Shown piece by piece: positions 24,431 to 43,995 of a stretch of DNA of 64,000 nt. The translations under genes and the position numbers were made by a program. The notes below the pieces were generated by a model. That model had not been told where the DNA came from. It saw nothing but the letters and a program-made list of their open reading frames with translations, and searched no databases. Source of the DNA: a virus (lineage: Duplodnaviria; Heunggongvirae; Uroviricota; Caudoviricetes); IMG/VR virus record IMGVR_UViG_2639762822_000001. One strand, 5' to 3'. Position 1 is the first letter of the stretch. Every line of letters begins with the position of its first letter.

Positions 24431-24545
24431 TAGAATTTCCTTGTTTTTAAAACAATTTGTTTTCTGATGTGTGAAATTTATCACTGTACGAACAGGCCGC
24501 TAAACTGTTCGTACAGGTCAACTTAGGGGGATCAGGGAAGGACGT

Positions 24546-24767
24546 TTAGTTCGTTCTGACTGCTAAGGAGCCGCAGCCGGTATTGATGAGTGTGAAGCGC
24601 TTATCACAAAGTTCGAAGGTAAAGGCGGTGGCGTCACCCATATCGAGGGAAATCTGTTTTGCTGGAAGGTCGGCTAGGATTGCTGCCACCTTTTCCTCGT
24701 GCAAAGAGAAAATATGGCCAACTTCAAGTTCGTTCAAATTACAGGCTATTTTTTCCATTTCATTCAT
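24546..24767 (-). CDS. hypothetical protein
   Basis: 73-aa ORF. Confidence 0.35.
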   Translation of the reverse strand: MNEMEKIACNLNELEVGHIFSLHEEKVAAILADLPAKQISLDMGDATAFTFELCDKRFTLINTGCGSLAVRTN

Positions 24768-25019
24768 CCAACTACATGGTTTCTAAACGTTTCTGAATAC
24801 TACTACCTATTGTATCAATAAGGAATATTTTCATATCAGATGTTTCTGCTTGCCATGTAATGAAAATGCCAGTCATTACACGCTTAAGTGTTGCCCTGCC
24901 TGGGATTAAGGAGCATAATGTGCCGCCAACAAATGGTAGATAAGTCTTTACAACCCTGGCCTTTGATGTAATATCAGTAAGCACTTACCAGAGATAAATA
25001 AAACACGCAGGGTATAAAC

Positions 25020-25400
25020 ATGGCTACCAACGAAGCTAAACAAGGTCGCTACGCCGCCTATATCGACTCTCTAATCACAATTTCCCCTAAAAGTCAGGCC
25101 ACTATCGCTAAGGAAATTGGGTATAAAAACCCTAACAATCTGTCACTTATCAAAAGTGGCAAAATTCCTTTGCCGGTGGACAAGGTTCGCCCGTTGGCCG
25201 TCTCTTTGGATGCTGACCCAGTACGCCTCATGCTCATGGTTCTCGAAGAGCGTCACCCGGAGCTTCTTGAGTTCTTCCGAGATGAAGGCACGGCTCCGCT
25301 TTCTCAAGACGAAAAACAGGTACTGGATGCTTTTCGCAAGCGTTTCGATGGTCAACAAGGTGCTTCAGAACAGGTCGTCGAGGCCATCAAGTCAATGTGA
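25020..25400 (+). CDS. helix-turn-helix (XRE/Cro-C1-like) transcriptional regulator
   Basis: QATIAKEIGYKNPNNLSLIKSGK HTH-like segment; divergent from upstream genes and convergent with the recombinase gene. Confidence 0.5.
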   Translation: MATNEAKQGRYAAYIDSLITISPKSQATIAKEIGYKNPNNLSLIKSGKIPLPVDKVRPLAVSLDADPVRLMLMVLEERHPELLEFFRDEGTAPLSQDEKQVLDAFRKRFDGQQGASEQVVEAIKSM

Positions 25401-26498
25401 GAAATTTATACGAATAAGCTCTGTCGCTAGACGATCTCCCTTGAAATTATGGTCTATCTCGTCTAAATCTGGTTGTTCTACGATGGATGCGATGTGCGCC
25501 GAAAATTTACATAAGGCGTCTCGCATTTCATCCATATAGTCGTGACGGTCGTAAACTCGATCTATTCCCTCAAGGCTATGGTTCATGATTTTACGAGAGA
25601 CTTCCTGATTAATACCCAGGGCAGGGAAATAGCTACGCGCTGTTCTTCGCAGATCGCGAGGAGTGAAGACCTCAACCTCCATCAATTCCGGACGTTCCAA
25701 AATCCTCCGGAGCGCCTGTGATATGGCTACTTTTGACATTGGCATGTCCTTATCGCGTTTCTTATTTGAGGGCACCAGCCACTGGCTGTCTTTCCCATAT
25801 TTAAACAGTTCCTCGACGCACTTCCTCATCAGCGGGCTTAACGGTAGAGCATGTTGTCTGGCCGATTTATTACGTGTGCCTTGATTCCATACATCACGTT
25901 GAAGGTTGAACTCACTCTTCTTGGCCCGGAGCACTTCATCGGGTCGCCTGGCAGCAACGAGACATAGTCTGGCCGCCCACTTTGTCCCTTCGCATACGTT
26001 GAAATAATCCCAGACGTTCCAAAAAACCCAAACTTCGGCGTCCGTTAGCTTGCGTTCCCGGGGCGTAGGTTTGGCGCCACCTGCGACCTTGTTGAGTGAC
26101 ATATCGTTCAACGGCGACGTTTCGATGACCCCCTGGAAGGCGCACCAGCCCAGAAACTGCTTCATCAGGGAAAACACACGCCTGCCCATGACGATCTTCC
26201 CTTCCAGAATGAGCGGGTTCACCAGCTGGTTGACGAGCACCCTACTAATATCACTTACTTTTACATCAGAGATAAAAGGTAAAACATGTATCAAAACACA
26301 ATGGACGGCGATCTCCGGTCGGCGTCTTGTTATGAGTAAAGATAAGCGAGTGAATAACAAGAAGGCATCTGAAAACTTCATCTCGCCACTTACCAGAGAG
26401 GCTGCCATCGCATTCATTTGCGAAGCCCGTTCCAGAAACTCAATCGCTTCTCGTGAGGTGTTTTCGGCTGCGCGTGCTCGATCAAACGAATTTTTCAT
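25392..26498 (-). CDS. tyrosine recombinase (phage integrase family; integrase or multimer-resolution recombinase)
   Basis: C-terminal catalytic pattern FTPRDLRRTARS ... IMNHS ... VYDRHDY (R, H-x-x-R-like, His, Tyr nucleophile). Confidence 0.75.
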   Translation of the reverse strand: MKNSFDRARAAENTSREAIEFLERASQMNAMAASLVSGEMKFSDAFLLFTRLSLLITRRRPEIAVHCVLIHVLPFISDVKVSDISRVLVNQLVNPLILEGKIVMGRRVFSLMKQFLGWCAFQGVIETSPLNDMSLNKVAGGAKPTPRERKLTDAEVWVFWNVWDYFNVCEGTKWAARLCLVAARRPDEVLRAKKSEFNLQRDVWNQGTRNKSARQHALPLSPLMRKCVEELFKYGKDSQWLVPSNKKRDKDMPMSKVAISQALRRILERPELMEVEVFTPRDLRRTARSYFPALGINQEVSRKIMNHSLEGIDRVYDRHDYMDEMRDALCKFSAHIASIVEQPDLDEIDHNFKGDRLATELIRINFSH

Positions 26499-26524
26499 AG
26501 TCCAATCACTTAGTTAGCCGCAAT

Positions 26525-26544
26525 ACTGTATGCATAAACAGTAT
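26525..26544. promoter_or_regulatory. LexA (SOS) box upstream of the recombinase gene
   Basis: TACTGTATGCATAAACAGTA fits TACTG(TA)5CAGTA / CTGT-N8-ACAG, 27-46 bp upstream of the recombinase start. Confidence 0.6.
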
Positions 26545-26595
26545 ATTAGGCATTGTTTCTTATGGGATCAAGCCTAACGTTACAGTGATTTTACC

Positions 26596-26628
26596 AATGA
26601 TTCCATACTTAATAGGTATGGAATCATT
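26596..26628. other. lox/dif-like recombination site candidate (13-bp perfect inverted arms, 7-bp spacer)
   Basis: AATGATTCCATAC-TTAATAG-GTATGGAATCATT about 100 bp upstream of the tyrosine recombinase gene. Confidence 0.5.
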
Positions 26629-26766
26629 TAAGGTCGATATCTTTAAATCTGAAGGATTTTTGTGTACCGTTTTAGCAATGGCAAAAATGCGGTATACCCA
26701 TGCACTCCCATGGTCGGTTAGGGTACAATATGCCAACGTATACTAATAATGAGGGATTGAAGGTAG

Positions 26767-27306
26767 ATGCACGCGCATAAGTTGGTAACACCAGGCTTGG
26801 CTTCGCTCCCTGGCGATCTGTCCTACCTAGATATAGAGTTTGTTTTTTCCGGAAATGAGACGCGTAAAGCTTGCTACCGCTTAGTCTTCTGCCCACCTTC
26901 ATTAGATCCAGTTGCTGCGGAAACCATGCACGGTATGTTGGGTACTGATGTTAATTCGTTGTGTGTATCAGTAGTTAGCTTTGTCGACATGGTTCAGCTT
27001 GACAGGCAACAGGAACAAATAGACAATCCAGTTGTTGGCGAGGAACCGGTTAACCTGTTCGCTAAACCGGAAGGGGCCTTTAACCTTACTTTGGGCGAAC
27101 TACAGTATCTTTACGGTACTTTAGTTGACTTCATGATCAAAGTTGCCGACAATGAAGGCATACAAGTTTTGTTCTTTGCAGCTGAACGCGAAGAACTGAT
27201 AGCCACATACGAAAGATATGTGAAGAGGTTTACACGAGATCGTGGCCTAACTTACTTAAATGACGGAGCTTCCTATGCGATACGAACGCAACACTACCCA
27301 GAATAA
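26767..27306 (+). CDS. hypothetical protein
   Basis: 179-aa plus-strand ORF. Confidence 0.45.
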   Translation: MHAHKLVTPGLASLPGDLSYLDIEFVFSGNETRKACYRLVFCPPSLDPVAAETMHGMLGTDVNSLCVSVVSFVDMVQLDRQQEQIDNPVVGEEPVNLFAKPEGAFNLTLGELQYLYGTLVDFMIKVADNEGIQVLFFAAEREELIATYERYVKRFTRDRGLTYLNDGASYAIRTQHYPE

Positions 27307-27421
27307 GGGTAAGATTGATTTCAAAGCGATCCATGCTAGCAAAGTCGAAATGATGAAACAGTTCATGACCGCTAAAGCTGAAGCTGAACGCAAGGGTGAA
27401 GTGGTCTTTAAACCACTGTAA
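27275..27421 (+). CDS. small hypothetical protein (48 aa)
   Basis: ATG with GGAG ribosome-binding site; MRYERNTTQNKGKIDFKAIHASKVEMMKQFMTAKAEAERKGEVVFKPL; followed by a terminator. Confidence 0.25.
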   Translation: MRYERNTTQNKGKIDFKAIHASKVEMMKQFMTAKAEAERKGEVVFKPL

Positions 27422-27440
27422 TCATTCGCTAGCAGTTATG

Positions 27441-27470
27441 AAAAGGCCCATACGGGCCTTTTTTGTTTTT
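27441..27470. terminator. bidirectional rho-independent terminator
   Basis: AAAAGGCCC-ATAC-GGGCCTTTTTT. Confidence 0.55.
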
Positions 27471-27756
27471 ACAACGTACTCACTAAAGCTGCAAATTCTG
27501 TATAGCCGCCGATAGGCTCGCCATTTACGAACACCTGCGGTATGGTCCCCACCGGCTTGCCAACCAGGTCGCTCAACTTCTCTTTGTCGATCCCGGCCGA
27601 CATAATGTCGATGTATTCGTAATCATCAAAGCCGTGGCCATGCAGCTGCTTCGCCAGCTCGACCGCACGTTTGCAGTATGAGCAATTTTCGCGTCCGTAG
27701 ATAACGACCTTCATGCCTTTGGTCATGATCTTTTTTTCGATTTCCATATCGACCAT
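27469..27756 (-). CDS. nrdC: glutaredoxin (NrdC/NrdH-like)
   Basis: CSYCKRA active-site CxxC in a thioredoxin-fold-sized protein; C-terminal GG motif. Confidence 0.8.
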   Translation of the reverse strand: MVDMEIEKKIMTKGMKVVIYGRENCSYCKRAVELAKQLHGHGFDDYEYIDIMSAGIDKEKLSDLVGKPVGTIPQVFVNGEPIGGYTEFAALVSTL

Positions 27757-28015
27757 ATTAGTCTCCTTACATAGAGCGAGTTACCCGAGCGAGAAGAATC
27801 AGCTCATAAGACCCTCATCGCGCCTATCTGCTTAGGACCTCAGCAGATATACCGCGTAGATTTGCTAAAAAACTAAGTCATGCGACTTTCTGATGTACTC
27901 AATGATGATTTCAACACACTGATACTACAGTAATTTCCATAAAACTTGTCAAGTAGCGATTTATTCATCAATTTCAGTTAAACTTTGTCTCAGGTTTCGG
28001 TGAGTTAGGGCAGAC

Positions 28016-28348
28016 ATGAGAATGACCAGCGAAGAAGCACTTTTAAAATCAGGTTTTAGTAAACGTGATCTACAAAAGCTGAAGAACAATATTGAGAACT
28101 ATGGTGGCTCACTTGATAGCGTTACTCATGATCTGGCCAATCGGTTTAAAGCATCGAAGTGGATAACAATCGTTGCCTTCATCATATTGGCTTTCACTCT
28201 CTTCTTTGCGTCAAAGGATACAAGTTTGATACTTGCGTTAACTTTGATGATTGTTCTGCCTTTTATCTGGTATATAACGCCAGCAAAACTAGGCTACAAA
28301 TCCTGGCGTTACCGTAAAATTCTCACTAATTCTGGGACGAATCACTGA
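28016..28348 (+). CDS. small membrane protein
   Basis: Two predicted TM helices. Confidence 0.45.
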   Translation: MRMTSEEALLKSGFSKRDLQKLKNNIENYGGSLDSVTHDLANRFKASKWITIVAFIILAFTLFFASKDTSLILALTLMIVLPFIWYITPAKLGYKSWRYRKILTNSGTNH

Positions 28349-29210
28349 CGGAAAGCAGATCAAAAATAATCTTAGCTTTCACGCCATAGCCAACGATTTT
28401 CATTGTAAGCTGAGGACGGCTCAGCGTGCTCACCTTCCGATAATAGTCAGCAGGCAGATATCGAAAGAGTCGCCAAGTGCCTGGTCTGCGTAAAAGACCA
28501 AAAATGGTGTACGCATTAGCGGCCAATGATATTGATTTGTAGACACCTAACCCGTTCTCTCGACTAAAGCCCATAAACTGAGCTGTTGACATCGCGGCAT
28601 CCGCGACTAATCCTTCACTGGTGGTGTTGTTAGTTGCGTAACGAGCCACTTCTTTACTGACGCTGTTGATCCCGTCAGTAACCAGAACCGCACCGGCCAA
28701 AACCCCGAGAGGGGTCATTGTGCCAATAAGGGTTAATCCTGCCGCAATTTCAGCACCTGCCAAGACAACGCTAACTGCCGATATCACATACCCAACAATT
28801 TTGTTGTTCTCTCGGATAAACTCGACTTTAGCGTAAAGTTTCGCTGCCTTCGTTCGTAATAACCGGGCTTGCTCCAGCAGGTTATTGTTTTCTTCTCTTA
28901 GCGTTTTAACGCATTCAAGGCAATCTTCATCTGATTTAGCCCGACGGGCTAACGCAAACTGTTGTTCTACGAGGTCCCGGATTTCCTGAATAAACTTCAT
29001 TCGAGTTAGGCCATCGCTGAGATGAAACGCAGACAAAGTATTGGCTGTATTTATCAGCTTCCTAGCTTCCATATTTACCATAGTTTCAGCCCAAGCTTTG
29101 TTTCTTCCGCCTGAGTGCATCATATTGAGCAATGCTGCGTCCATTGTGATTCCTCTAAATGGCTTTACCGGTGTCTGGTCAGACTGATAACGATTTACCC
29201 TAACATGCAC
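28326..29210 (-). CDS. hypothetical membrane protein
   Basis: Central hydrophobic segments; true start may be internal. Confidence 0.4.
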   Translation of the reverse strand: MHVRVNRYQSDQTPVKPFRGITMDAALLNMMHSGGRNKAWAETMVNMEARKLINTANTLSAFHLSDGLTRMKFIQEIRDLVEQQFALARRAKSDEDCLECVKTLREENNNLLEQARLLRTKAAKLYAKVEFIRENNKIVGYVISAVSVVLAGAEIAAGLTLIGTMTPLGVLAGAVLVTDGINSVSKEVARYATNNTTSEGLVADAAMSTAQFMGFSRENGLGVYKSISLAANAYTIFGLLRRPGTWRLFRYLPADYYRKVSTLSRPQLTMKIVGYGVKAKIIFDLLSVSDSSQN

Positions 29211-29280
29211 AATATAGTAGCAATGTTGTTACGAGTCCTGAAGTGGAACTCGCAATTTCATAATTCGTACCTACTGAGCC

Positions 29281-30078
29281 TTATTGGTAGGCTTCAAGCG
29301 CAATTTTGCATAACTCAGACCGTACACAGTCCTCGCTCTCGAACTCAATCCGTCCAACATATTCAGACGGCTTAAAGCGCTCCATAGCGTCTTCCAGCCC
29401 TGATTTGACGCTGCCTGGAAGATCGCATTGGGTGATATCCCCGTTAACGATAACCGTAACGTTTTCTCCCATACGGGTCAGGAACATTTTCATTTGTGAC
29501 GCTGTCACGTTTTGAGCTTCATCCAGAATCACCACAGCGTTTTCGAAAGTGCGCCCACGCATGTAAGCGAAGGGGGCAATCTCCACTTTGGCCACCTCTG
29601 GCTTTAAGCAATATTCGAGAAACGAGCCACCCAGACGCTTCTGTAGCACGTCATAGACTGGCCGGAAGAACGGAGCGAACTTCTCGCTCATGTCGCCCGG
29701 AAGAAAGCCCAGATCTTCGTCTGCTTGCAATACCGGACGAGTCACGATGATCTTGTCTACTTCCTTATTAAGTAGACGCTGCGCTGCAACGGCCGCGGCC
29801 AGGTACGTTTTACCGCAGCCAGCTTCGCCAGTGGCGAACGTTAGCGTTTTGGTATCGAGGGAGATGAGATAGTGGGCCTGGGCCTCGTTTCGCGCTTCGA
29901 GAGGAGTGTTGTCGCGCTTCGGTTTCGGAGGCAGAGCAGGGGCGGCAGCCAGTTCGTCAACAATGATTGTGTCGATTTCATAACCACGAATGCGTGATTT
30001 TGACTTCAGTGCCTGGCGAACTGCGCGACGCGCCTGTTTACGTTTGTTTCTCATATTGAGTCCTTTCAAGTGAGTCAC
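29281..30078 (-). CDS. phoH: PhoH-family ATPase
   Basis: Walker A GEAGCGKTYLA and Walker B VILDEAQN in PhoH arrangement; start may be the internal MRNKRK. Confidence 0.85.
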   Translation of the reverse strand: MTHLKGLNMRNKRKQARRAVRQALKSKSRIRGYEIDTIIVDELAAAPALPPKPKRDNTPLEARNEAQAHYLISLDTKTLTFATGEAGCGKTYLAAAVAAQRLLNKEVDKIIVTRPVLQADEDLGFLPGDMSEKFAPFFRPVYDVLQKRLGGSFLEYCLKPEVAKVEIAPFAYMRGRTFENAVVILDEAQNVTASQMKMFLTRMGENVTVIVNGDITQCDLPGSVKSGLEDAMERFKPSEYVGRIEFESEDCVRSELCKIALEAYQ

Positions 30079-30118
30079 CGAAAAGACTATACATGAAAAA
30101 AAATAGGTAGGTCATTAC

Positions 30119-30913
30119 CTACCATGAGATGTTCTTGTCTACTTTGCCTCTTGGTTTTGCTTTCACGATTGTCCTCTTCAATGCTTCATAGGCGTACTTG
30201 CAACGATAGGGATCGGCCAAAACATGCAAAGGTACATTGTTAGATAGCTTTCTAAATTTAGCTGTTAGGTCAATGTAAAAGTCGAACTCAAATATAGAAA
30301 AAAAATAAAAATTAGGTCTTTTCGTCTCAACAGGGAAGAAAGTTCCATATCGTGGAAACCAAAACGAAGGCGCGATTTCAACCTTATAGCTCAGATCATT
30401 ATTTTCAGGATCGAGCAAAAAGACTCTCAACTCTTCTTTGGCTTCTTCGTTTATTTTAATTGGTATGCAACCGTTCCAAACATCAAAGGTAGCACGCCAT
30501 AAGATACTGATCGCTAGGTAGTAAATGCTATCAACATCTATGCTTGGCAAGAACCCTGATCCGATGGAAACGTTAGGTGCTATTCTGGGATCTAAACTAG
30601 CGTTATCCCAAAATGGGATGACCTTCTCTTTGGCTATTTTGAAGAATTTAGAAACATCAACGCGGTTTAGTGGCGGCAAGCACATGCGGGCATAGCTGTT
30701 TTCACCATACTTCGATAGTTTGCCTTCACAATCTTTGCATAACAAATAGCTTTTAACTTCTTTTGACAGGATATAGGTATTACCGTCTTTATCTGTCATG
30801 TTCAAATTTTTGCCTTCTGCGACCATATTACGCGCACGGCGATAAATTTGTTTTGGCAAGAAGTGACTGTCTTCTAATTTGTCAACTTCTTCTCTACACA
30901 TAGGGCAAAACAT
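30119..30913 (-). CDS. AT-rich orphan gene: zinc-ribbon protein of unknown function
   Basis: Start at the internal ATG 30913 with AGGAG ribosome-binding site; N-terminal CPMC...CKDC; local GC visibly lower than neighbouring genes; flanked by hairpins. Confidence 0.45.
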   Translation of the reverse strand: MFCPMCREEVDKLEDSHFLPKQIYRRARNMVAEGKNLNMTDKDGNTYILSKEVKSYLLCKDCEGKLSKYGENSYARMCLPPLNRVDVSKFFKIAKEKVIPFWDNASLDPRIAPNVSIGSGFLPSIDVDSIYYLAISILWRATFDVWNGCIPIKINEEAKEELRVFLLDPENNDLSYKVEIAPSFWFPRYGTFFPVETKRPNFYFFSIFEFDFYIDLTAKFRKLSNNVPLHVLADPYRCKYAYEALKRTIVKAKPRGKVDKNISW

Positions 30914-30950
30914 CTGCGAACTCCTGAATAATTTACGAAGAGACAATATA

Positions 30951-30978
30951 GCAAAAAGGGGCCGAAGCCCCTTTGGAT
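30951..30978. terminator. rho-independent terminator
   Basis: AAAAAGGGGC-CGAA-GCCCCTTTGG. Confidence 0.5.
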
Positions 30979-31147
30979 TTTGCACTGAAAAAAAGTATAA
31001 CTACGATGCTAAGAAGCACTATGGTTAAGAACGTCTGCCGTGTCTATCACAGCGTTGAACGGTCTGGGTGACGTTAGCGGAGTCATTTAGTGAATGGAAT
31101 CCCAAACCGTTCAGCGATGTGCTGGCCTCCGCAGAGGCCAGTCAGTA

Positions 31148-31759: not shown

Positions 31760-31783
31760 GTGTTTTCCTTCGTCGTTTTTATA

Positions 31784-31870
31784 TTGGCGGAAGGTAATGG
31801 AATCGAACCATCACCGCGCTAGCAGTGAGACGGTTTTCAAGACCGCTTGAGCACCATGCTCCCTACCTTC
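31784..31870 (-). tRNA. tRNA-Ser (anticodon UGA), class II with long variable arm
   Basis: Acceptor GGAAGGT/ACCTTCC, anticodon arm GCGGT-CUUGAAA-ACCGU, T-loop TTCGATT, 3' GCCA; 87 nt. Confidence 0.7.
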
Positions 31871-32255: not shown

Positions 32256-32257
32256 AT

Positions 32258-32332: not shown

Positions 32333-33051
32333 AATTTCGCAGCGGTACTGGCTTCAAAGATAAAGTTTTCCCGCAACTTGCACTTTACGTTAGTGCCAGA
32401 CGAGGCTTGCGGCTCGCTCAAATAGAGCGAAGATCTTAAACACTGCTCGGTGCTTCAGAGAGCGCCGGGGAGTCAGATCTTATTGGATGTATGGAATCAT
32501 CCGTGTTGTGGCAGCTACATGCTAAAACCAGAGGGTATTACTATTGCCACAACGTTGAGGCCACTAAACTAGTAATGTTTGCCCAACATCTTTGTCAGTC
32601 GCTACAGCCTCTGTGGATTCACCTGTATGATTGAAAGAAACAGTGGCCTCAACGTTGTGTGCTGGCTAACCAGGCCAGCCGGGTTACGTCGCCGATCTTC
32701 TTTAACCCAAGACAAAACGACATAAGTAATGGAAATGACGTAACAGGATGAACGGTCGATAACTGAAACCGGGATAGGTGAATGGAATGAGGAAACCAAC
32801 CGCCCATCCTGTTACTTCATCGGAGAGGGCATGGGTGGTGCCGTATCATGCCCTCTCCTGCGTTCTGCAATCACACTCGCTCAGTGTGTCCCATTTCGGT
32901 GACGAGGCTGGAAACTGACCTCGCTGGTGTTTGGCTTATTAGGCTACTGCCAGATACTGATTGTCGTTTGCGGTTATCTTTAAACGTTCAAACAGTCGCG
33001 TACTAACGAAAACAAAGCAATCTTATATATATCATAAAAATAAGTAAATAC

Positions 33052-33357
33052 TTATTTATCAGCTATGCGTTCAGTTGATAACTTTTTGATCAGAGTCCCC
33101 TTCGAAGAGGGGGTTCGTGAGACAGTGACGGTAAATCGCTTCCCCTGGATAGTAATACTCTCGTGCTCCTTCAGTTCCCCATAGCGGATTTCCAATAGGG
33201 CGCCAAGACGCCATAGTCCATCATCGATACGCTTTTTACTGGCAAACTTTATCATCAACCATTTCACAATAAATTGGCCTGTAGCGAATGCGCACGCAAC
33301 GCCAGCCGCCGTAAAGTAGGCGACCAGCCACCAGTCGAGTGAGGTCAGTTCCGTCAT
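33052..33357 (-). CDS. small membrane-anchored hypothetical protein
   Basis: N-terminal TM helix. Confidence 0.4.
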   Translation of the reverse strand: MTELTSLDWWLVAYFTAAGVACAFATGQFIVKWLMIKFASKKRIDDGLWRLGALLEIRYGELKEHESITIQGKRFTVTVSRTPSSKGTLIKKLSTERIADK

Positions 33358-35200: not shown

Positions 35201-35234
35201 AGCTATTCAACCTCCATCGGTCGCTCGGGAGTTC

Positions 35235-35702: not shown

Positions 35703-35783
35703 ATAACAAACCGTAGCTTTGTACTTACTTAATAAAAGGATTCTAAACAAGCCCCATCAGGGGGCTAAGTGTTTAAGTAAGGC

Positions 35784-36578: not shown

Positions 36579-36761
36579 AAAGGTTCCTCAATTCCTTCGT
36601 TGCGCATATTCTTACAGAAAAATAAGTATGTATCTACTTATCAATATAGGCATTTAGTTTCGCTTATAAAAGATGCTCTTAATCCTATCCAGTTGTAGCT
36701 GTCAGGTCACTTCTATATGATTTCACTAAACTAATACGTTAAACACACAAGGCTTAGGTCT

Positions 36762-37832: not shown

Positions 37833-38931
37833 TTCCCCGTACCTTGCTTTGTAGCTCCAACTGTTTGGAGTACGGCTTGGAACGATAATAGGCTTTGAGG
37901 ATCTGCTCAGGCGTCGCGTCACCCGGGTCGAGACCTTCTTCGCCCAGACAGCCCACTTTGACATTGAGTCCGATGCTGGTGAGACGTTTGGCTGCCGACA
38001 TGGTGTTGCGGATCGCTTGCTTTTCGCTGTCCCACATCATGATGACGTTGCGTAATCCACGCGCCTTGAGCGTCAGGAACGCGCCCAACTGATCTTCAGC
38101 ATCCTCATTCATATTTCCGGATAAGTGCATCCCGAACGTGCCAATTGGTTCCACGTAATCCCGCAGCGTCTCTTCGTCGAAAATGGCACGCTTCACGCCC
38201 ATTACGTCAAATGCCCCTTCACACACAACGACCGTTTGTTTTCCGACTGCGTTGTGGCCGTTGTAGAGAAACTTACCTGACGCCGGCAACTGCATTGGGA
38301 AGAGATAACGGCGTTCTGCTGTGCCGGTGACATCACGCCCCTGGAATGTCTTCATGACACCATCCAGATCGTAAACCGGTATGAGAATGCGCATGTCAAA
38401 CACCTGCCCCTTCACTTGGTCGGTGTAGGGATCGACATATGCGTGCTTGCCTTTCACGCAATAACGAAGGTCAAAGTATCTGGCCATTTCCGGCGTTATG
38501 AGACGCTTAACGAGATAATCAGGAAGTCGCCCATCGATAGGCAGTTCATAGTGGCGAGGAAGAGCAACTGGTCCCTCAAGCTCAACACCACTGGATAACA
38601 CCACTTCTTCTTTCTTCGGCGCCCACCCCTGCGAGATTAAGGCATTCTGAACGTATGCCTCGAAATCTCGACGTGATTTGCCACTGTAGTGCTTGAGAAA
38701 AACCAGCTTGTTAAACTGAATCTCTTCGGGGTGATCGCCCGCAAAACATTTACCTACGCCATGAGAGAGGTTGAAATACACTTTCCAGTTTGAGCTGCCG
38801 CATACTGGACACTCTTTGATGTTAATTTCTCGCCCGCGCGTACTCACTCCGCCGCGACGATAGATAATGCCTTCAGTATCGAGCCATTGTTCAAAATCCA
38901 GCTCGGTCAGTAACTCTTTCAGGTCGCTCAC
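37816..38931 (-). CDS. DNA primase (DnaG-like zinc-binding domain plus TOPRIM)
   Basis: CPVCGSSNW...CFAGDH zinc ribbon; TOPRIM VVVCEGAFDVMGV; GTG start. Confidence 0.85.
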   Translation of the reverse strand: MSDLKELLTELDFEQWLDTEGIIYRRGGVSTRGREINIKECPVCGSSNWKVYFNLSHGVGKCFAGDHPEEIQFNKLVFLKHYSGKSRRDFEAYVQNALISQGWAPKKEEVVLSSGVELEGPVALPRHYELPIDGRLPDYLVKRLITPEMARYFDLRYCVKGKHAYVDPYTDQVKGQVFDMRILIPVYDLDGVMKTFQGRDVTGTAERRYLFPMQLPASGKFLYNGHNAVGKQTVVVCEGAFDVMGVKRAIFDEETLRDYVEPIGTFGMHLSGNMNEDAEDQLGAFLTLKARGLRNVIMMWDSEKQAIRNTMSAAKRLTSIGLNVKVGCLGEEGLDPGDATPEQILKAYYRSKPYSKQLELQSKVRGIKALI

Positions 38932-39081
38932 GTTTAAACCTACTTTTTTCAGGCAATATTTTGATTACTCTCGGTTTTTAGTTACCATAGAGGCTCATGT
39001 GTTTTTCTTTTGTGGTTTTGGCAAAAGAAAACTTAAATCTCTGATGGATTAAGGCGTGGAGAGACTTTCCACGCCTGTTTT

Positions 39082-40422
39082 TTATAAAACATCCATGATT
39101 CTTTCGATAAACCGCATTTGTTCCAGGTTCTGCTTGACACGGATGCTCACCCCGCCCTTCTGGTTACGTGAACCAGCAAAGTAGAGTCTTGCCTCGCCTT
39201 TTGCTTCTTCCTCTTCCGTTTTGTTGATAGTGATGACCAAGTCAGCGATACGCACCTTCTCGATGTTGTCTGCCGCGTGCATCATGGTCGCCACTTCCGA
39301 TGCCCCACCTTCCCTGTTGGTCTGGGATGCGGTGATGCCGGCAACGTTGTGCTTGTCGTACAGCGCACGAAGATCGGTGTAAATGCTTCGTATGTTTGCC
39401 CGGTCATCACGGAGGTCGTAGCTCGGCCGCATCAGATCGGCATAATCGACAACCACCATATCCGGGATCATGCCATTTGCCTTCATGCCGCCCAGCATAC
39501 GGTCAAGATCTGCAGGCGATACGCTTCCGGATGGCCGCTCAACAATCCACAAGCTCCCAACCCCTTTCGTCGCCCCCAACTCCGCCAGTTTGCGATGGAC
39601 GTCGTCGCGGCGCTCCACCAGCTTGGACATTTCCGTCTCCGACAGACGGGCGTCAAAACGGTCTGACAGAATAGACGTGTGTACTTCCAGCGAAAGATAC
39701 AGGACGTTGTAACCGGCAAGCGTGGCGTTGACAGAGAACTCACCCATCGCCGTCGATTTACCAGACTTCGCGAAGCCCATGAACAGCACCATTTCACGCT
39801 TGGCCCAGCCTTTCTGGTAAAGCAGTTTATCGAGCAGGGGGAGGCCCGTAGTGATGCTGTTTGGCACGTAATCATCGGATGCCTCGTACTCACGCGACTT
39901 GTAACGCTCTGCTGACTCAGAGAAGTAATCGTAGATACCGGTCGCTTCGTTAGAGCCGATTTGCTGGACTTTGGCCATGATTGCCATCGCGCCCTGGAAA
40001 TCGCCCTTCTCCTTCATCTCAGCCGCTTTGATTAGCGCGTCGTCGAACGCCACGCTTTTGGCGAACGTCGCGACCTGGTCGACCATGTAAGCCGTGTCTG
40101 ACAGCTTCTCAGCGAGAATCCGCTTAAACGCCTCAACAACATCGGGGAACAGCTCTTCGCGGATCGTCTTATCGCGTTTGGCGCGTTTGAGCATGTCGAG
40201 GATGGCCGACGACGAAGGTGCGCTTTTGTACATTCTGTAATAGCCAGACACCATATTCACCAGCAGGGCATTGGCCGCGTTGGAGAACTGGTTAGGTGCA
40301 ACCAAATCGCCTGCACGAGTCAGAAACTCATGGTCGCGACAGAAATAGGCTGCGAGCCGGTTCTGGAAGTCGTCATCGAACTCTTCTGACAACCCTCGTC
40401 CTGTATGGCAAAGTTCGGTCAT
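39082..40422 (-). CDS. dnaB: replicative DNA helicase (DnaB/gp41-like)
   Basis: Walker A GFAKSGKST and Walker B MVVVDYADLM in a RecA-like C-terminal domain; start context AAAGGAAAGCACATG. Confidence 0.85.
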   Translation of the reverse strand: MTELCHTGRGLSEEFDDDFQNRLAAYFCRDHEFLTRAGDLVAPNQFSNAANALLVNMVSGYYRMYKSAPSSSAILDMLKRAKRDKTIREELFPDVVEAFKRILAEKLSDTAYMVDQVATFAKSVAFDDALIKAAEMKEKGDFQGAMAIMAKVQQIGSNEATGIYDYFSESAERYKSREYEASDDYVPNSITTGLPLLDKLLYQKGWAKREMVLFMGFAKSGKSTAMGEFSVNATLAGYNVLYLSLEVHTSILSDRFDARLSETEMSKLVERRDDVHRKLAELGATKGVGSLWIVERPSGSVSPADLDRMLGGMKANGMIPDMVVVDYADLMRPSYDLRDDRANIRSIYTDLRALYDKHNVAGITASQTNREGGASEVATMMHAADNIEKVRIADLVITINKTEEEEAKGEARLYFAGSRNQKGGVSIRVKQNLEQMRFIERIMDVL

Positions 40423-40484
40423 GTGCTTTCCTTTGGTTCTTAAACAAATTGTTTTCTAATGCTATAAAAAAGCCAGATAGGGGA

Positions 40485-41222
40485 TCAACAGAAACGCCGC
40501 GCTTCTTCCAGTTCTTCCGGAAAGTGGGCGTAGATAACTCGCTCAGGCACAACTTCCATGAGCCAGATGGCAGAAAAAATTATGCGTATGCGCTTATCCC
40601 GGGTGATGCCACGTAAACGCTCCAGAACCCACTCAAAATAGCTTTCCTGAATCGGGTCGTGCTGCATGTCTCCCAAATGCTTAAAACTCACCAGAGAGTC
40701 ATCCAGACGGGTTACAGCGCGTTTAGCTAACTTCTCTTCGAATATCTCGATTAGCTCTGGCTGCCAGAGATGTTGTGGGCGAGGTAATTTGTCCCACAAC
40801 CGACGTGCAGCAGCGGAGAGAACGGTGGAGATGAAGTAGTCATAAGAGCAGCAATAACGATCTGCGAACTGTCTGGCTTTCCAGAGAGAGGTCTTATTGG
40901 CAGTGGATAGCTCCTGATATGGCAAACGCTTCAGGCCAGTTGTAAACGGTGCTGTCTCGAAGTGTTCACGTCCATGCGACAGCATGATGTAGGAGTACTG
41001 CCGCTTGTATGCTTCGGTGAACAGACATGTCGCCATTAGCGGGTGCATATCCCGGTAGTCGAACCACTTAGAGTCATACAACTGGGCCTCATCCTTACAG
41101 CGAGAAAGACCGATGTTTTCGGCCACCCACTTGTCCATGACAGCGGTGTCCCACTCCTTCATGAAGGCGTACTGGTCGTTGTCGATAGTGTTGAAGAAAA
41201 TTTGGCTCATGTGATCCGCCAC
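40485..41222 (-). CDS. hypothetical protein
   Basis: 245-aa ORF, GTG or internal ATG start. Confidence 0.45.
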   Translation of the reverse strand: MADHMSQIFFNTIDNDQYAFMKEWDTAVMDKWVAENIGLSRCKDEAQLYDSKWFDYRDMHPLMATCLFTEAYKRQYSYIMLSHGREHFETAPFTTGLKRLPYQELSTANKTSLWKARQFADRYCCSYDYFISTVLSAAARRLWDKLPRPQHLWQPELIEIFEEKLAKRAVTRLDDSLVSFKHLGDMQHDPIQESYFEWVLERLRGITRDKRIRIIFSAIWLMEVVPERVIYAHFPEELEEARRFC

Positions 41223-41415
41223 AGTAGGTAGTTACTTACTTATCAAAGTGAGCGAATCATAACGACTGGTGACAGCTTTTGGAAGTGGCAACTGGAGGGA
41301 ATGTGTCTGGGAAGTCGGCATAGGAACAGACCTGCTTCCGTATAAATAATAATAAGTAACTTAGTAGTTATATACAGAAGCAGGTTCTCAGTGCCCCCAG
41401 ATCATCTTAGAAGCT

Positions 41416-42579
41416 CTATCGATACTCAGGAAACCAACCCTTAACTATATGTCTAAGTGCGACTTGAGATATTTCAAATACCTGTCGAGACACCAAGGCG
41501 CCATCTGGATGGCGCTGGTCAGAAATGTCATTCGCTATATCATAAAAATTATGCGTTATTTCAGGAGAAGAGAAGACACTCTTATCCAAAGGCACGGTTG
41601 CATAAGGGTTGTAATATACATGCAGGCCATCGAAGTGTGTTTCTGTGTAATCCCTAGAGTGGCACATCACGATATCCGCACCAACAACCTCATTGTTGTA
41701 AAATTGCCGTTTGGTGGTCACATAATGTTCGTTTGAAAGTTTTGTCGTATGTGAACCTTCATTCTTCATGCCTTCAGAGGCTATAAAATCATTCAGTTCA
41801 AGGGCGCGGAATCTTGTATATCGCACATATCGGTCCACACCACTTTGGACGACGGCCTTGCCATAAGTTCCAGTTGTTGAAAATATGACAGCACTGATTT
41901 CCTTGTAGGAGTCATTTGTAAAAATACCTAAAGGTAATTCCGTATCTTCATTTTTTTTAATTGATAATACTTTTCTCTGCTTACCATCAACGATGTCTCT
42001 CATCGTTGGTTCTTCGATTCCGAACAACACTCGATTAATAATCGTATTATTTTGGCTTAACGATAGGTCTGAATCAAATGGGGCCAATGCCAAAACAAAC
42101 GGTTTTCCAGCCACATGTTCCATTGTTCCATAAGGAAACTTCTTGCCGTTAACACCGGTAAAAAGATCATGCTTATCTTTAATCTTTCCGAGAAGTTTTA
42201 AAGTTGATTGATGTTTAAACCTCGCTTCGCTGAAAACTTCACTGGCAGGTGGTTTATGAGGTTTGTCAGAGACCATCGCCTCTACAGTAAATTGATAACC
42301 TGATGGTGTGGTAACACAAAAGTCAGGACGGTCTTTTGTATAGTCTATCGAATAACCTAGGCGAATAAACATCTCATTAAGATACAATTCCCACATAGCA
42401 GAGTTAAAGGTAGTCTGGAACTCGTTCACAAATTTAGCTTGCTCGCCAGTGCGTTCTAACAACCCGCGTCCCCATGATTGAATGACTTCCCTAACAGGAG
42501 CAAGCTTGGGGTCTTTATAGATTGCTTTAAAACTTACATGTAATTTATTTTTCGCTATTTTTGTTGAGAATAAATCCAT
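41416..42579 (-). CDS. AT-rich orphan gene of unknown function
   Basis: 387 aa; markedly lower GC; preceded by about 200 bp of noncoding sequence. Confidence 0.45.
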   Translation of the reverse strand: MDLFSTKIAKNKLHVSFKAIYKDPKLAPVREVIQSWGRGLLERTGEQAKFVNEFQTTFNSAMWELYLNEMFIRLGYSIDYTKDRPDFCVTTPSGYQFTVEAMVSDKPHKPPASEVFSEARFKHQSTLKLLGKIKDKHDLFTGVNGKKFPYGTMEHVAGKPFVLALAPFDSDLSLSQNNTIINRVLFGIEEPTMRDIVDGKQRKVLSIKKNEDTELPLGIFTNDSYKEISAVIFSTTGTYGKAVVQSGVDRYVRYTRFRALELNDFIASEGMKNEGSHTTKLSNEHYVTTKRQFYNNEVVGADIVMCHSRDYTETHFDGLHVYYNPYATVPLDKSVFSSPEITHNFYDIANDISDQRHPDGALVSRQVFEISQVALRHIVKGWFPEYR

Positions 42580-42756
42580 TATTTCCCTCTCTAGTCAACT
42601 CAATTAAACACCCTGACATCATGAAATAACATCCAAAGCCAGAATTATTAAAGCATTGTTTTCATCAATTCATAACCGTCAGCAACTGTAGCCAGTTTCC
42701 AATACTGGATATGTGGATTTTATTTAGCCAATTGTCGAGCATTTGGCTTCCTGTAA

Positions 42757-42775
42757 AGAGAGGCGCATAAGCGCC
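42757..42775 (-). terminator. putative terminator after the partition operon
   Basis: GAGGCGC-ATAA-GCGCCTC hairpin. Confidence 0.4.
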
Positions 42776-42784
42776 TCAAGACAT

Positions 42785-43144
42785 TTAACCTTTCTTCATC
42801 AACTCACGCTTGATTTCATCAGTGCGCATCGTGACATCAGCAGCGGTGATCGCCTCGTTCAGTTTCACAATGTCTTCGATTTCCTGCGGCGACTTCTCTG
42901 CCAGATGGAAAATGGCGGCACGAATCACGTCAGAACGGGTGAACTTCTCAAAGCGAGGGATGAATTTCATCATCTCCAGTAGATCGAAGTATTCGTCCTC
43001 CAGCGACATGGTACGGCTCTTTATTTTCTCTTTCCCACGAGTCGGGCGACCCTGTGGTCTGACTGGCTGGCGCAATGGCGTGCTGTTTTTGGCCGGAGCA
43101 TCCGGTTCTTTGCGCTTAGCAAGGTCTCCCATCTTCATGGACAT
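42785..43144 (-). CDS. parG: ParG-like ribbon-helix-helix centromere-binding partition protein
   Basis: Small basic protein directly after the small ParA; C-terminal SDVIRAAIFHLAEKSPQEIEDIV is RHH-like. Confidence 0.45.
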   Translation of the reverse strand: MSMKMGDLAKRKEPDAPAKNSTPLRQPVRPQGRPTRGKEKIKSRTMSLEDEYFDLLEMMKFIPRFEKFTRSDVIRAAIFHLAEKSPQEIEDIVKLNEAITAADVTMRTDEIKRELMKKG

Positions 43145-43809
43145 TACTCTTCCTCCAGACTCAAGATATAATCAACAAACTGTTCAAACTCGGCTTCTGC
43201 CTTCTTGTCGCGTTCGGCGCCAGTCATTTCAAAGATAGAGCGACCAGCCTCTTCTGCATCATCGTAAACGTTACGGTTGTACAAATTGACCGGTGCAGCT
43301 TCGATACCAAAGGTCTCAACGATTTCTTTGGCGGCCAGAATACGCGACACCTGAGAAGGTAGTGACGGGCACTGGTTGATAACGGCACGTATTTTCACCT
43401 TCTCATTCACATTGCGTACATTGTCGATAATCGGGTCGATGTCGCGCAGCGATTTCAGATCACGACGTTTAGGGCGCAGCGGTATGACGATAACATCAGC
43501 CATCAGCATAGCTTGTCGCTGGATTTCGGAGTCGAAGCCCCCTGCATCTACAACCACGTAGTCGACACGCCCTTGGAGCGATTTAAGGTGCTTAACGATG
43601 TCGTCCTGAACATAAGCGAAGGGGATAAGCTCTAGGTCTTCATTCTGGCGACGATCTTCGCACCAGCTTGTTGTGGTGCGCTGGATGTCGATATCGGTAA
43701 CTTGGGTTTTCTTCTTCTTTTTCACTTTGAGGCATACCGCAATCTGCTGGGCAACTGTTGATTTGCCCGGGCCGCCCTTTGTGCCGCCAACCACAATGAT
43801 CTTGGTCAT
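43144..43809 (-). CDS. parA: ParA/MinD-family partition ATPase (small, type Ib)
   Basis: Deviant Walker A KIIVVGGTKGGPGKST; 221 aa; AAGGGAAC ribosome-binding site. Confidence 0.8.
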   Translation of the reverse strand: MTKIIVVGGTKGGPGKSTVAQQIAVCLKVKKKKKTQVTDIDIQRTTTSWCEDRRQNEDLELIPFAYVQDDIVKHLKSLQGRVDYVVVDAGGFDSEIQRQAMLMADVIVIPLRPKRRDLKSLRDIDPIIDNVRNVNEKVKIRAVINQCPSLPSQVSRILAAKEIVETFGIEAAPVNLYNRNVYDDAEEAGRSIFEMTGAERDKKAEAEFEQFVDYILSLEEE

Positions 43810-43995
43810 TGGATAGTTCCCTTTGCGTGAATTATTGTCGTTTGAAACAACTTGTTTTCTTGTATGCGATATAGCCTAAATGTCTACGGCTGCGGTGTAA
43901 AGTGTTTAGCGCAGGCTTTTTTATCAGATCAGTTAGGCATAAAATGTTGGAGAATGTGGACACAAATCACTGAACAGATGTTTTATAAGGATCAT

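What the first reader, a model, noticed from the sequence alone, without database searches (positions are those of the whole stretch)
24449..43859. Second palindromic element GAAAACAA-n-TTGTTTTC immediately upstream of three operon-leading genes (cobT-like, dnaB-like, parA)
Near-identical 16-bp palindromes lie at 24449-24464, 40443-40458 and 43844-43859, each 12-40 bp upstream of the start codon of a minus-strand gene that opens an operon: the CobT/CobS-DnaE block, the helicase-primase block and the partition operon. A shared operator across replication and partition operons implies one repressor or activator coordinating them. Candidates are the ParG-like RHH protein or a lysogeny-type regulator.
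Basis: seen in the sequence. Interest (0 to 1): 0.6.

Follow-up and report, generated by a model that had tools for sequence, protein, structure and literature searches.

The report
Genome-wide operator of SSU5-type phage-plasmids
The three palindromes are real, but they are 4 of about 20 copies of one conserved promoter-proximal control site that marks the replication, partition and other early operons of SSU5/pHCM2-type phage-plasmids; those operons are almost all silent in the plasmid-prophage state, and the protein that reads the site is not identified.

Summary
Observation confirmed and enlarged. AAACAA-N-TTGTTT is exact at 24450-62, 40442-54 and 43845-57.

The window is an SSU5/pHCM2-like phage-plasmid. 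Complete relatives carry 7-13 exact copies (about 17-19 with one mismatch), almost all intergenic. The usual layout is sigma-70 extended -10, 8-12 bp, AGAAAACAA-N-TTGTTT, Shine-Dalgarno, ATG. Some promoters have a second, inverted copy centred near -38.

The motif is invariant at orthologous promoters in about 240 loci while the flanks and the central base vary. In the Cyrano lysogen transcriptome, operons behind the motif sit at background; only the par operon is moderately expressed.

Best reading: a dispersed double-stranded DNA operator for one element-encoded repressor, comparable to P1 C1, omega or KorA/KorB regulons. The binder is unresolved.
- ParG-like ribbon-helix-helix protein (~0.35-0.4): the only candidate with the site at its own promoter.
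- FljA-family tandem-Sm protein (~0.15-0.2): co-occurs with the motif.
- XRE regulator (~0.15).

I found no published description of the motif. It is a new member of a known kind.

The parts
24447..24465 (-). Class I element AGAAAACAAATTGTTTTAA, upstream of the cobT-like/cobS/dnaE operon
   Evidence: The orthologous site is kept in cobT-upstream variants from IMG/VR while the flanks differ.
40439..40457 (-). Class I element AGAAAACAATTTGTTTAAG, upstream of the dnaB-like helicase/primase genes
   Evidence: Exact in 76 of 79 loci. Information content is 1.96 bits in the motif, 1.15 in the upstream flank and 0.51 at the central base.
43842..43860 (-). Class I element AGAAAACAAGTTGTTTCAA, upstream of the parA / ParG-like operon
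   Evidence: Exact in 80 of 80 loci.
11407..11425 (-). Fourth class I element AGAAAACAAATTGGTTACT (one core mismatch), upstream of a 77-aa ORF that leads a small-gene operon
   Evidence: Orthologous copies occur in Cyrano (58592), Cronobacter JZ38 (37133) and pMT1 (50064), with diverged flanks.
24475..24483 (-). Predicted extended -10 (TGATAAATT) of the cobT promoter, 9 nt upstream of the element
   Evidence: Read. The TGnTAnnTT pattern is kept in three divergent cobT-upstream groups. Prediction only; the strict consensus scan found nothing.
40459..40488 (-). Predicted dnaB promoter: -10 TAGCAT (40459-40464) and -35 TTGATC (40483-40488, overlapping the stop codon of the upstream gene)
   Evidence: Relatives have TAGTAT, TACGAT or TAATAC at the same place. 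Prediction only (one search found nothing).
43873..43901 (-). Predicted parA promoter: -10 TAGGCT (43873-43878), 17-nt spacer, -35 TTTACA (43896-43901)
   Evidence: The block is conserved in all 34 variants. Prediction only (one search found nothing).
11434..11470 (-). Intrinsic terminator (hairpin 11453-11470, T-run 11445-11451) followed by a predicted -10 TAATAT (11434-11439), 8 nt upstream of the fourth element
   Evidence: pMT1 has TATTAT at the same distance.
22106..24430 (-). cobT-like gene, first gene of the operon behind element 1
   Evidence: Annotated 'porphyrin biosynthesis protein' in relatives. The Cyrano orthologue reads 7.8 in the lysogen against a median of 9.8.
39082..40422 (-). 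dnaB-like replicative helicase gene
   Evidence: The Cyrano orthologue reads 21.
43144..43809 (-). parA (Walker-type, MinD/MipZ-like partition ATPase)
   Evidence: The Cyrano orthologue reads 50.
42785..43144 (-). 119-aa ParG-like protein. Candidate binder; the only candidate with the element at its own promoter
   Evidence: Sequence pattern KSRTMSLEDE (strand), helix, helix, invariant in five genomes. 98% identical to Cyrano CYRAN_29, which reads 89 in the lysogen. Pfam finds nothing. The AF2 monomer model is low confidence (pLDDT 63) and shows helices at 48-60 and 70-84.
25020..25400 (+). 126-aa XRE-type helix-turn-helix regulator next to the integrase (orthologue of the Cyrano 'putative repressor'). 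Rival candidate binder
   Evidence: phrog_8. Reads 96 in the lysogen. There is no class I copy in its own upstream region.
11170..11403 (-). 77-aa ORF behind the fourth element

Best explanation
The palindrome is the core of a dispersed double-stranded DNA operator. Its consensus on the gene strand is YA-AGAAAACAA-N-TTGTTT-A, and it is a true 8-1-8 dyad, GAAAACAA-N-TTGTTTTC, where no ribosome-binding site overlaps the distal arm.

It sits on or just after the predicted transcription start of sigma-70 extended -10 promoters, and at some promoters also at about -38. One dimeric or tetrameric repressor encoded by the element would bind all copies. In the plasmid-prophage state this would keep the phage replisome (cobT/cobS/dnaE, dnaB/primase), nucleotide, packaging and small early operons shut, and would damp the partition operon.

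What is shown: the copies, their positions, their conservation, and the silence of the downstream genes in a lysogen. What is inferred: binding and repression.

The likeliest binder is the ParG-like ribbon-helix-helix protein encoded after parA, acting like omega of pSM19035 as both partition-operon autoregulator and global repressor. Two dimers would sit on inverted 9-bp units whose centres are 10 bp apart. My confidence that this is a DNA operator for negative control is about 0.65; my confidence in ParG-like specifically is about 0.35-0.4.
For: Number and place of copies:
- 4 copies in the window against 0.25 expected.
- Exact 13-mer counts in complete relatives are 11 (pAR-0407-3), 9 (Cyrano), 7 (JZ38) and 13 (a Klebsiella plasmid). 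In each it is the top 6-N-6 palindrome of the genome.
- In Cyrano, 15 of 18 sites are intergenic by the published annotation, against an intergenic fraction of 13% (P = 3e-11). Two of the other three lie at start codons that appear to be annotated too far upstream.

Architecture:
- The usual layout is TGnGATAAT, then 8-12 nt, then the element, then Shine-Dalgarno and ATG.
- Near-consensus extended -10 promoters should be active by default, which calls for a repressor.

Conservation:
- The motif carries 1.9-2.0 bits per position against 1.1 in the flanks at dnaB and cobT.
- The central base is free: A21, C16, G20, T13 in 70 sites.

DNA rather than RNA:
- Deviations are one-sided and mirror-symmetric in type: C>T at -3 with G>A at +3, A>C at -4 with T>G at +4, and A>T with T>A at +/-1 and +/-6.
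- There are no compensatory pairs.
- The RNA hairpin is negligible: -3.5 kcal/mol for the perfect 17-mer and 0 for the 13-mer.
- Several promoters carry only the upstream copy, which cannot be in their mRNA.

Lysogen transcriptome (Cyrano in E. coli LF82, PMC9928086 Table S1):
- Genes behind the motif read 5.7-25 against a median of 9.8; the par operon reads 50-89.
- Genes expressed in the lysogen that lack the motif read far higher: RepA 133, XRE 96, toxin-antitoxin genes 141-592.

For ParG-like specifically:
- It is the only candidate whose own promoter carries the element.
- Its putative DNA-reading strand, KSRT[MV]S[LMI]EDE, is invariant in five genomes, and the protein is 98% identical between the window and Cyrano.
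- The Moellerella relative has no class I regulon and no FljA-like gene. Its parA promoter still keeps ATA-AGAAAACAA plus an inverted AAGAAAACC, in intergenic DNA that is otherwise unalignable.
Against: - No binding data exist, and transcription starts are predicted, not mapped. The strict consensus scan found no promoter at the three sites.
- Type Ib centromere-binding proteins normally bind arrays of many short repeats. Only one palindrome lies near par, and no repeat array exists in 42.5-44.3 kb.
- The ribbon-helix-helix fold of the 119-aa protein is not confirmed: Pfam finds nothing and the AF2 model has pLDDT 63.
- Y. pestis pMT1 lacks ParA and ParG-like yet keeps 6 intact sites. The timing of that loss is unknown, so this is only weak evidence against.
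- Moellerella has ParG-like, yet the right arm of its parA site is degenerate (ATATTT) and the other sites are absent.
- The par operon is the least repressed member of the regulon.
- The motif is asymmetric beyond +/-6: the promoter-proximal arm is conserved out to 9 nt. A symmetric binder alone does not explain this.
Confidence: 0.6

Rival explanations
1. The element is read by the FljA-family protein of the phage-plasmid. This is a 175-aa protein encoded outside the window in the lysogeny-expressed UvsW operon. It would either bind the 5' end of the mRNAs, blocking the adjacent ribosome-binding site as Salmonella FljA does on fliC mRNA, or bind DNA as a pseudo-dimeric tandem-domain protein.
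For: - Pfam PF03614 matches at E = 8e-90, and phrog_1444 is labelled 'transcriptional repressor'.
- It is a core gene of the family, found in 831 plasmids including pMT1.
- Presence/absence pattern: it is the only annotated nucleic-acid-binding protein present in all four motif-bearing genomes and absent from Moellerella, which lacks the regulon.
- About three quarters of sites lie between the predicted start and the Shine-Dalgarno, 6-20 nt from the ATG, with the strong arm always 5' on the sense strand. A two-domain monomer would explain the asymmetric arms.
- That FljA binds the fliC 5'UTR is from my own knowledge (Yamamoto and Kutsukake 2006), cited in PMC2652032.
Against: - The Sm fold has no known mode of reading a duplex palindrome.
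- Mirror-symmetric substitutions, the lack of hairpin stability and promoters with only the upstream copy all point to duplex DNA.
- The motif is unchanged in a Klebsiella plasmid whose FljA-like protein is only 33% identical and lacks the otherwise invariant AEVWPRDY segment.
- The fliC 5'UTR shares only CAAGTTGT. Its PWM score is -2.9 against 17.6-29.7 for true sites, and 9% of shuffles do as well.
- The parA half-sites persist in Moellerella without this protein.
- The absence pattern rests on a single motif-free genome.
Confidence: 0.17
2. The element is the operator of the XRE-type helix-turn-helix protein next to the integrase (the 'putative repressor' of Cyrano). This would be a P1 C1-like master prophage repressor with dispersed operators.
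For: - A 17-bp dyad with a free central base is lambda-like.
- The protein is expressed in the lysogen at 96.
- It is a core gene, found in about 1000 plasmids.
- Its recognition-helix segment NN[LI]S.IK is conserved in all motif-bearing genomes.
- Cyrano is induced by ciprofloxacin (PMC9928086), as expected for a repressor-controlled prophage.
Against: - There is no class I copy in its own upstream region. That region instead carries a copy resembling the second palindrome family (GGTAAGTGCTTAC).
- The motif is conserved right up to the dyad (+/-1 to +/-3), which is unusual for helix-turn-helix dimers.
- Moellerella keeps the protein, with a similar recognition helix, but has no class I regulon.
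- It would have to repress the partition operon that the plasmid prophage needs.
Confidence: 0.15
3. The element is not a repressor site. It would instead be part of a special promoter class: an initial-transcribed or activator-dependent element used only in lytic growth, or a site for an Enterobacteriaceae host factor.
For: - The promoter-proximal arm and its prefix (CA-AGAAAACAA) are conserved further than symmetry requires.
- The upstream copies are centred near -38, a position used by class II activators.
- Silence in the lysogen is equally expected for activator-dependent promoters.
- All motif-bearing hosts are Enterobacteriaceae or Yersinia; the motif-free one is a member of the Morganellaceae.
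Against: - Most copies lie downstream of a near-consensus extended -10, where activators do not act and where such promoters need no help.
- The dyad symmetry and free centre indicate a bound dimer, not an RNA polymerase contact.
- No host regulator with this consensus is known to me (own knowledge).
- No paper in the searched library contains the 13-mer.
Confidence: 0.1

Closest known systems
Phage-plasmid P1 C1 repressor and its dispersed operators (own knowledge)
   Same: A plasmid prophage in which many scattered operons, including a DnaB-type helicase gene (ban), each carry a copy of one operator at the promoter, so that a single repressor holds them all.
   Different: P1 operators are asymmetric 17-mers (ATTGCTCTAATAAATTT), and C1 is a large unrelated protein. 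Here the site is a dyad, the partition operon belongs to the regulon, and the repressor is not identified.
Omega (ribbon-helix-helix) of pSM19035, and ParG of TP228: type Ib centromere-binding proteins (own knowledge)
   Same: A small protein encoded after a Walker-type ParA. It represses its own operon from a site at the promoter, and in the case of omega also represses copy-control and other promoters elsewhere on the replicon.
   Different: Omega and ParG bind arrays of 7-10 heptads or tetramer boxes that double as the centromere. Here each promoter has one 8-1-8 dyad (sometimes two, 51 bp apart), about 20 promoters are involved, and no repeat array lies near par. The fold is unconfirmed.
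KorA/KorB regulon of IncP plasmid RK2 (own knowledge)
   Same: Palindromic operators repeated at promoters for replication, partition and other backbone functions, giving coordinate global repression.
   Different: Different proteins and sequences. RK2 is a conjugative plasmid; here the controlled genes are a phage replisome, packaging genes and early genes.
FljA of Salmonella (Pfam PF03614) acting on the fliC 5'UTR (own knowledge; cited in PMC2652032)
   Same: The phage-plasmid encodes a full-length family member. The element lies, like the FljA target, between the transcription start and the ribosome-binding site.
   Different: Chromosomal FljA is only about 35-37% identical. The fliC UTR does not match the element. 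The element behaves as a DNA dyad.

Membership tests
Dispersed-operator prophage regulon (P1 C1 type) | Many copies of one site, each at the promoter of a separate operon | tested here: met
   4 copies in the window. Each complete relative has 17-19 sites with at most one core mismatch, nearly all intergenic and upstream of genes.
Dispersed-operator prophage regulon (P1 C1 type) | The site overlaps the promoter or transcription start | tested here: inconclusive
   Predicted extended -10 elements lie 8-12 nt upstream in most copies. No starts are mapped, and the strict scan was negative at the three window sites.
Dispersed-operator prophage regulon (P1 C1 type) | Controlled operons are silent in the lysogen | tested here: met
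   Cyrano orthologues read 5.7-25 against a median of 9.8. The par operon (50-89) is the exception.
Dispersed-operator prophage regulon (P1 C1 type) | A repressor binds the site | not testable with these tools
   Needs EMSA, footprinting or ChIP.
Type Ib partition system with a ribbon-helix-helix centromere-binding protein (ParG/omega type) | A small protein gene directly after a Walker-type parA | tested here: met
   parA is at 43144-43809 and the 119-aa gene at 42785-43144, overlapping by one base.
Type Ib partition system with a ribbon-helix-helix centromere-binding protein (ParG/omega type) | Ribbon-helix-helix fold | tested here: inconclusive
   Pfam finds nothing. The AF2 monomer model has pLDDT 63, with helices at 48-60 and 70-84 after the conserved KSRTMSL segment. 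The pattern fits but is not shown.
Type Ib partition system with a ribbon-helix-helix centromere-binding protein (ParG/omega type) | An operator at the parA promoter | tested here: met
   The element is at 43842-43860, between the predicted -10 and the ATG, and is exact in 80 of 80 loci. Binding itself is not tested.
Type Ib partition system with a ribbon-helix-helix centromere-binding protein (ParG/omega type) | An array of multiple short repeats forming the centromere next to the operon | tested here: not met
   No repeat array in 42500-44300, and no cluster of half-sites near par.
FljA family (Pfam PF03614), RNA 5'UTR operator | Presence of a family member in the element | tested here: met
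   E = 8e-90 over the whole profile in the closest complete relative. The gene lies outside the window.
FljA family (Pfam PF03614), RNA 5'UTR operator | The target resembles the known FljA target (fliC 5'UTR) | tested here: not met
   Best PWM score in the UTR is -2.9 against 17.6-29.7 for true sites; shuffle P = 0.09. Only CAAGTTGT is shared.
FljA family (Pfam PF03614), RNA 5'UTR operator | The site always lies within the regulated mRNA | tested here: not met
   About a fifth of copies lie upstream of the -10, and some promoters have only that copy.
Structured RNA element (hairpin) | A stable fold and compensatory base changes | tested here: not met
   MFE is 0 to -3.5 kcal/mol for the element alone, and it is not adopted in the cobT or parA contexts. 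There are no double changes in 70 sites.
Lambda-type cI/Cro (XRE) operator | Operators clustered beside the repressor gene (autoregulation) | tested here: not met
   No class I copy with 2 or fewer mismatches lies between the XRE gene and its divergent neighbour.

The most novel reading that the evidence does not exclude
A Hfq-like fold would then act as master silencer of about 20 phage-plasmid transcription units, on nascent RNA or on DNA. Salmonella's flagellar phase-variation repressor FljA would be a domesticated offshoot of this mobile-element regulator family.
Probability: 0.17. Interest if true: 0.8.

Novelty: new member of a known kind. Interest (0 to 1): 0.55.

Why it matters
SSU5/pHCM2-type phage-plasmids are common. 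At least 800 plasmid records in PLSDB belong to the group, in Klebsiella, E. coli, Enterobacter and Salmonella, and the backbone of Y. pestis pMT1 is related. They often carry resistance genes. In the literature I could search, nothing describes how they choose between plasmid maintenance and lytic growth.

This element, together with a second palindrome family, appears to mark a large share of the promoters of these genomes. It reduces the question to a short test: which of three small proteins binds a defined 19-bp site. If the partition protein is the binder, plasmid segregation and silencing of the phage replisome would be coupled through one protein.

Tried and rejected
- RNA hairpin or translational operator formed by the palindrome. 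Rejected as the main reading: weak folding, no covariation, and promoters with only the upstream copy.
- Match between the element and the fliC 5'UTR, the known FljA target. Retrieved from Salmonella and Citrobacter genomes. Only an 8-mer is shared and it is not significant by PWM.
- The 12-bp inverted repeat at 24484-24516 as a second operator. It is unique in the window. Its stem changes in a compensatory way among relatives. It sits 30 nt after the stop codon of the upstream gene, so I read it as a terminator-like hairpin.
- The 88-aa winged-helix protein and the 92-aa ribbon-helix-helix-like protein of the UvsW operon as binders. The first has an unchanged recognition helix in the motif-free Moellerella plasmid. 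The second varies at its strand residues among motif-bearing genomes.
- Small proteins present only in motif-bearing genomes. None has a recognisable DNA-binding domain.
- Homologues of the ParG-like protein in other contexts. Only family members and one IS-truncated remnant were found.
- A chromosomal FljA-like copy. It is an integrated or fragmented copy of the same element, so it is not independent.
- Literature. No paper in the library contains either 13-mer, and no paper links FljA to phage-plasmids. Two relevant papers could not be read.

Full report
**What the window is.**
The region 38-46 kb is 87% identical to Salmonella phage SSU5 and matches 739 plasmid records. The first 25 kb is 98% identical to Salmonella Concord plasmid pAR-0407-3 (NZ_CP044180, 106,569 bp) and 83% identical to Y. 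pestis pMT1. The window is therefore about 60% of an SSU5/pHCM2-type phage-plasmid. Annotation of relatives gives these minus-strand blocks: cobT-like/AAA/dnaE, integrase plus a divergent XRE regulator, ligase, primase/dnaB, parA plus a 119-aa gene, lysis genes and tail genes.

**Check of the observation.**
- The three palindromes are present as described; site 2 is offset by 2 nt.
- AAACAANTTGTTT with at most one mismatch occurs 4 times against 0.25 expected, and no shuffle reached 4.
It follows an intrinsic terminator and precedes a 77-aa ORF.
- On the coding strand all copies read AGAAAACAA-N-TTGTTT.

**The element is genome-wide.**
I assembled five complete relatives plus pMT1 from annotated records. 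Exact 13-mer counts are:

| Genome | Exact copies |
|---|---|
| pAR-0407-3 | 11 |
| Cyrano (E. coli LF82) | 9 |
| Cronobacter JZ38 plasmid | 7 |
| Klebsiella plasmid NZ_CP097685 | 13 |
| pMT1 | 3 (6 sites with ≤1 mismatch) |
| Moellerella plasmid | 0 |

- In every motif-bearing genome it is the most frequent 6-N-6 palindrome. Its words top the list of 8-mers enriched in intergenic DNA.
- With one mismatch allowed, 70 sites are found in four genomes.
- In Cyrano, 15 of 18 sites are intergenic by the published annotation, against an intergenic fraction of 13% (P = 3e-11). Two of the other three lie at start codons that appear to be set too far upstream.
- Besides cobT, dnaB and parA, the genes behind the element include the small-terminase operon (two copies 25 bp apart), nrdB, the operon of the fourth window site, and about ten small genes of the accessory early region.

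**Anatomy.**
- The common layout is an extended -10 (TGnGATAAT or close), 8-12 nt, the element, then a Shine-Dalgarno sequence that often abuts the distal arm, then ATG 6-35 nt downstream.
- At cobT, three divergent groups of relatives keep TGnTAnnTT at the same distance while the rest of the sequence differs.
- Where no ribosome-binding site overlaps it, the distal arm extends to TTGTTTTC. The underlying dyad is therefore 8-1-8.
- About a fifth of copies are inverted and centred near -38 of such promoters. They are usually 51 bp from a downstream copy, but some promoters have only the upstream copy.
- These promoter assignments are predictions. The strict consensus scan found none at the three window sites.

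**Conservation.**
I examined about 240 IMG/VR loci fetched with ParA, DnaB and CobT.
- The 16-mer is exact in 80/80 parA loci and 76/79 dnaB loci.
- It is exact in 33/80 cobT loci; the remaining cobT loci have 1 or 2 mismatches.
- Information content at dnaB and cobT is 1.9-2.0 bits in the motif, 1.1 in the flanks, and 0.5-1.1 at the central base.
- The fourth site is 19/19 identical between the window and pMT1, although the 27 nt between the terminator and the motif have diverged.

**DNA or RNA.**
Four observations favour recognition of a duplex dyad by a symmetric oligomer.
- In the 70 sites no pair changes on both sides.
- The tolerated changes mirror each other: C>T at -3 with G>A at +3, A>C at -4 with T>G at +4, and A>T with T>A at +/-1 and +/-6.
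- The RNA hairpin is negligible.
- Upstream-only copies cannot act in the mRNA.

One feature does not fit this reading. The promoter-proximal arm is conserved out to 9 nt in both the downstream and the upstream copies. I cannot separate an operator constraint from a promoter constraint there.

**Expression.**
The only transcriptome I found for such an element is Cyrano in E. coli LF82 (PMC9928086, Table S1).
- In LB, genes directly behind the motif read 5.7-25 normalised counts against a median of 9.8.
- The par operon reads 50-89.
- Motif-less genes expressed in the lysogen read much higher: RepA 133, XRE 96, integrase 50, toxin-antitoxin genes 141-592, and the UvsW operon 18-114.
- Cyrano is induced by ciprofloxacin.

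This pattern fits negative control of default-on promoters, with par partly escaping.

**Who binds.**
Three proteins are expressed in the lysogen and could bind nucleic acid.

(a) The ParG-like 119-aa protein.
- For: it is the only candidate with the element at its own promoter. Its putative strand KSRT[MV]S[LMI]EDE is invariant in five genomes, and it is 98% identical between the window and Cyrano.
- For: the Moellerella plasmid lacks the regulon, yet keeps ATA-AGAAAACAA and an inverted AAGAAAACC at its parA promoter, within otherwise unalignable DNA.
- For: two dimers on inverted 9-bp units with centres 10 bp apart would suit a ribbon-helix-helix tetramer (own knowledge of Arc and CopG).
- Against: there is no centromere-like repeat array, and the fold is unconfirmed.
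- Against: pMT1 keeps six sites without this protein.

(b) The FljA-family 175-aa protein.
- For: it is the only annotated nucleic-acid binder present in all motif-bearing genomes and absent from Moellerella.
- Its model is a tandem Sm/Hfq-like barrel.
- Against: this fold suits RNA or single-stranded DNA rather than a duplex dyad.
- Against: the fliC UTR does not match the element.
- Against: a member only 33% identical coexists with an unchanged motif.

(c) The XRE protein.
- For: it is a core gene, it is expressed in the lysogen, and its recognition helix is conserved.
- Against: its own promoter lacks the element and carries a copy resembling the other palindrome family.
- Against: Moellerella keeps the protein without the regulon.

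I rank ParG-like at about 0.35-0.4, FljA-like at about 0.15-0.2, XRE at about 0.15, and an unknown or host factor for the rest. These weights are judgement, not computation.

**Comparison and novelty.**
The arrangement works like the dispersed C1 operators of P1, the omega regulon of pSM19035 or the KorA/KorB regulon of RK2 (own knowledge). It is not shown to belong to any of them. The array feature of type Ib centromeres was tested and not met. No paper in the searchable library contains either 13-mer, and none links FljA to phage-plasmids. Two possibly relevant papers could not be opened. I therefore class it as a new member of a known kind: an undescribed global operator in a widespread phage-plasmid family.

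**Verdict.**
The idea of a shared regulator is supported. The identity of that regulator is open and can be tested directly. Interest 0.55.

Noticed in passing
window 7, 4698-4715, 12554-12567, 30104-30121, 33041-33054, 36623-36640, 41225-41242, 46709-46726; a related copy near 24975-24992: A second genome-wide palindrome family, TA[AG]GTA-N2/N6-TAC[CT]TA, with about 20 copies per complete genome. It sits upstream of a different set of operons: recombinase, the gene upstream of dnaB, lysis, portal and tail genes, the UvsW/FljA-like operon, and in weaker form the XRE gene. The half-site is TAGGTA in Cronobacter JZ38. Three copies persist in Moellerella. It could be the XRE operator or a late-promoter element.
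   Followed up: partly
window 24484-24516: A perfect 12-bp inverted repeat, CTGTACGAACAG-N9-CTGTTCGTACAG, between the 73-aa gene and the cobT promoter. It is unique in the window. Relatives have CTGCGCGAA...TTCGCGCAG, or a different GC-rich palindrome, at the same place, so the stem changes in a compensatory way. I read it as a terminator-like hairpin overlapping the -35 region, not as a shared operator.
   Followed up: partly
[not shown]
   Followed up: partly
window 26767-27306 (+): A 179-aa ORF (phrog_28788, function unknown) on the strand opposite the bulk of the genes, beside the integrase. Its positional counterpart in Cyrano, CYRAN_43, is by far the most abundant transcript of the lysogen: 7084 against a median of 9.8. 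Homology between the two was not tested.
   Followed up: no
L267/L268 (Y. pestis CO92 pMT1): 28495, 28520, 37409, 37901, 50064, 89256: pMT1 keeps six intact copies of the element, and also the FljA-like (89%), XRE (86%), 92-aa and 88-aa regulators. It has lost the parA/ParG-like and dnaB regions. The phage-type control circuit therefore survives in the plague plasmid.
   Followed up: partly
NZ_CP044180 15836-15905, 19973-20042, 22030-22090; Cyrano 93111-93180: Where two copies bracket a promoter 51 bp apart, the extended -10 read on the other strand (TGTTATTATC from GATAATAACA) is itself an extended -10. These regions may therefore fire in both directions, with one element copy in each leader.
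   Followed up: no
outside the window: NZ_CP044180 11452-11730; Cyrano CYRAN_117: A 92-aa protein with a ribbon-helix-helix-like pattern (IHCQVQL strand followed by two helices). It reads 114 in the lysogen and evolves fast at the putative DNA-reading strand. It is a candidate immunity-type regulator.
   Followed up: partly
window 43852-46000: A low-GC stretch (0.42 against about 0.49) directly upstream of the parA promoter holds a plus-strand ORF (43852-45195 at its longest). An Enterobacter relative has a HEPN-domain gene at this position, and other relatives have different genes there. It looks like a variable accessory or defence slot.
   Followed up: no
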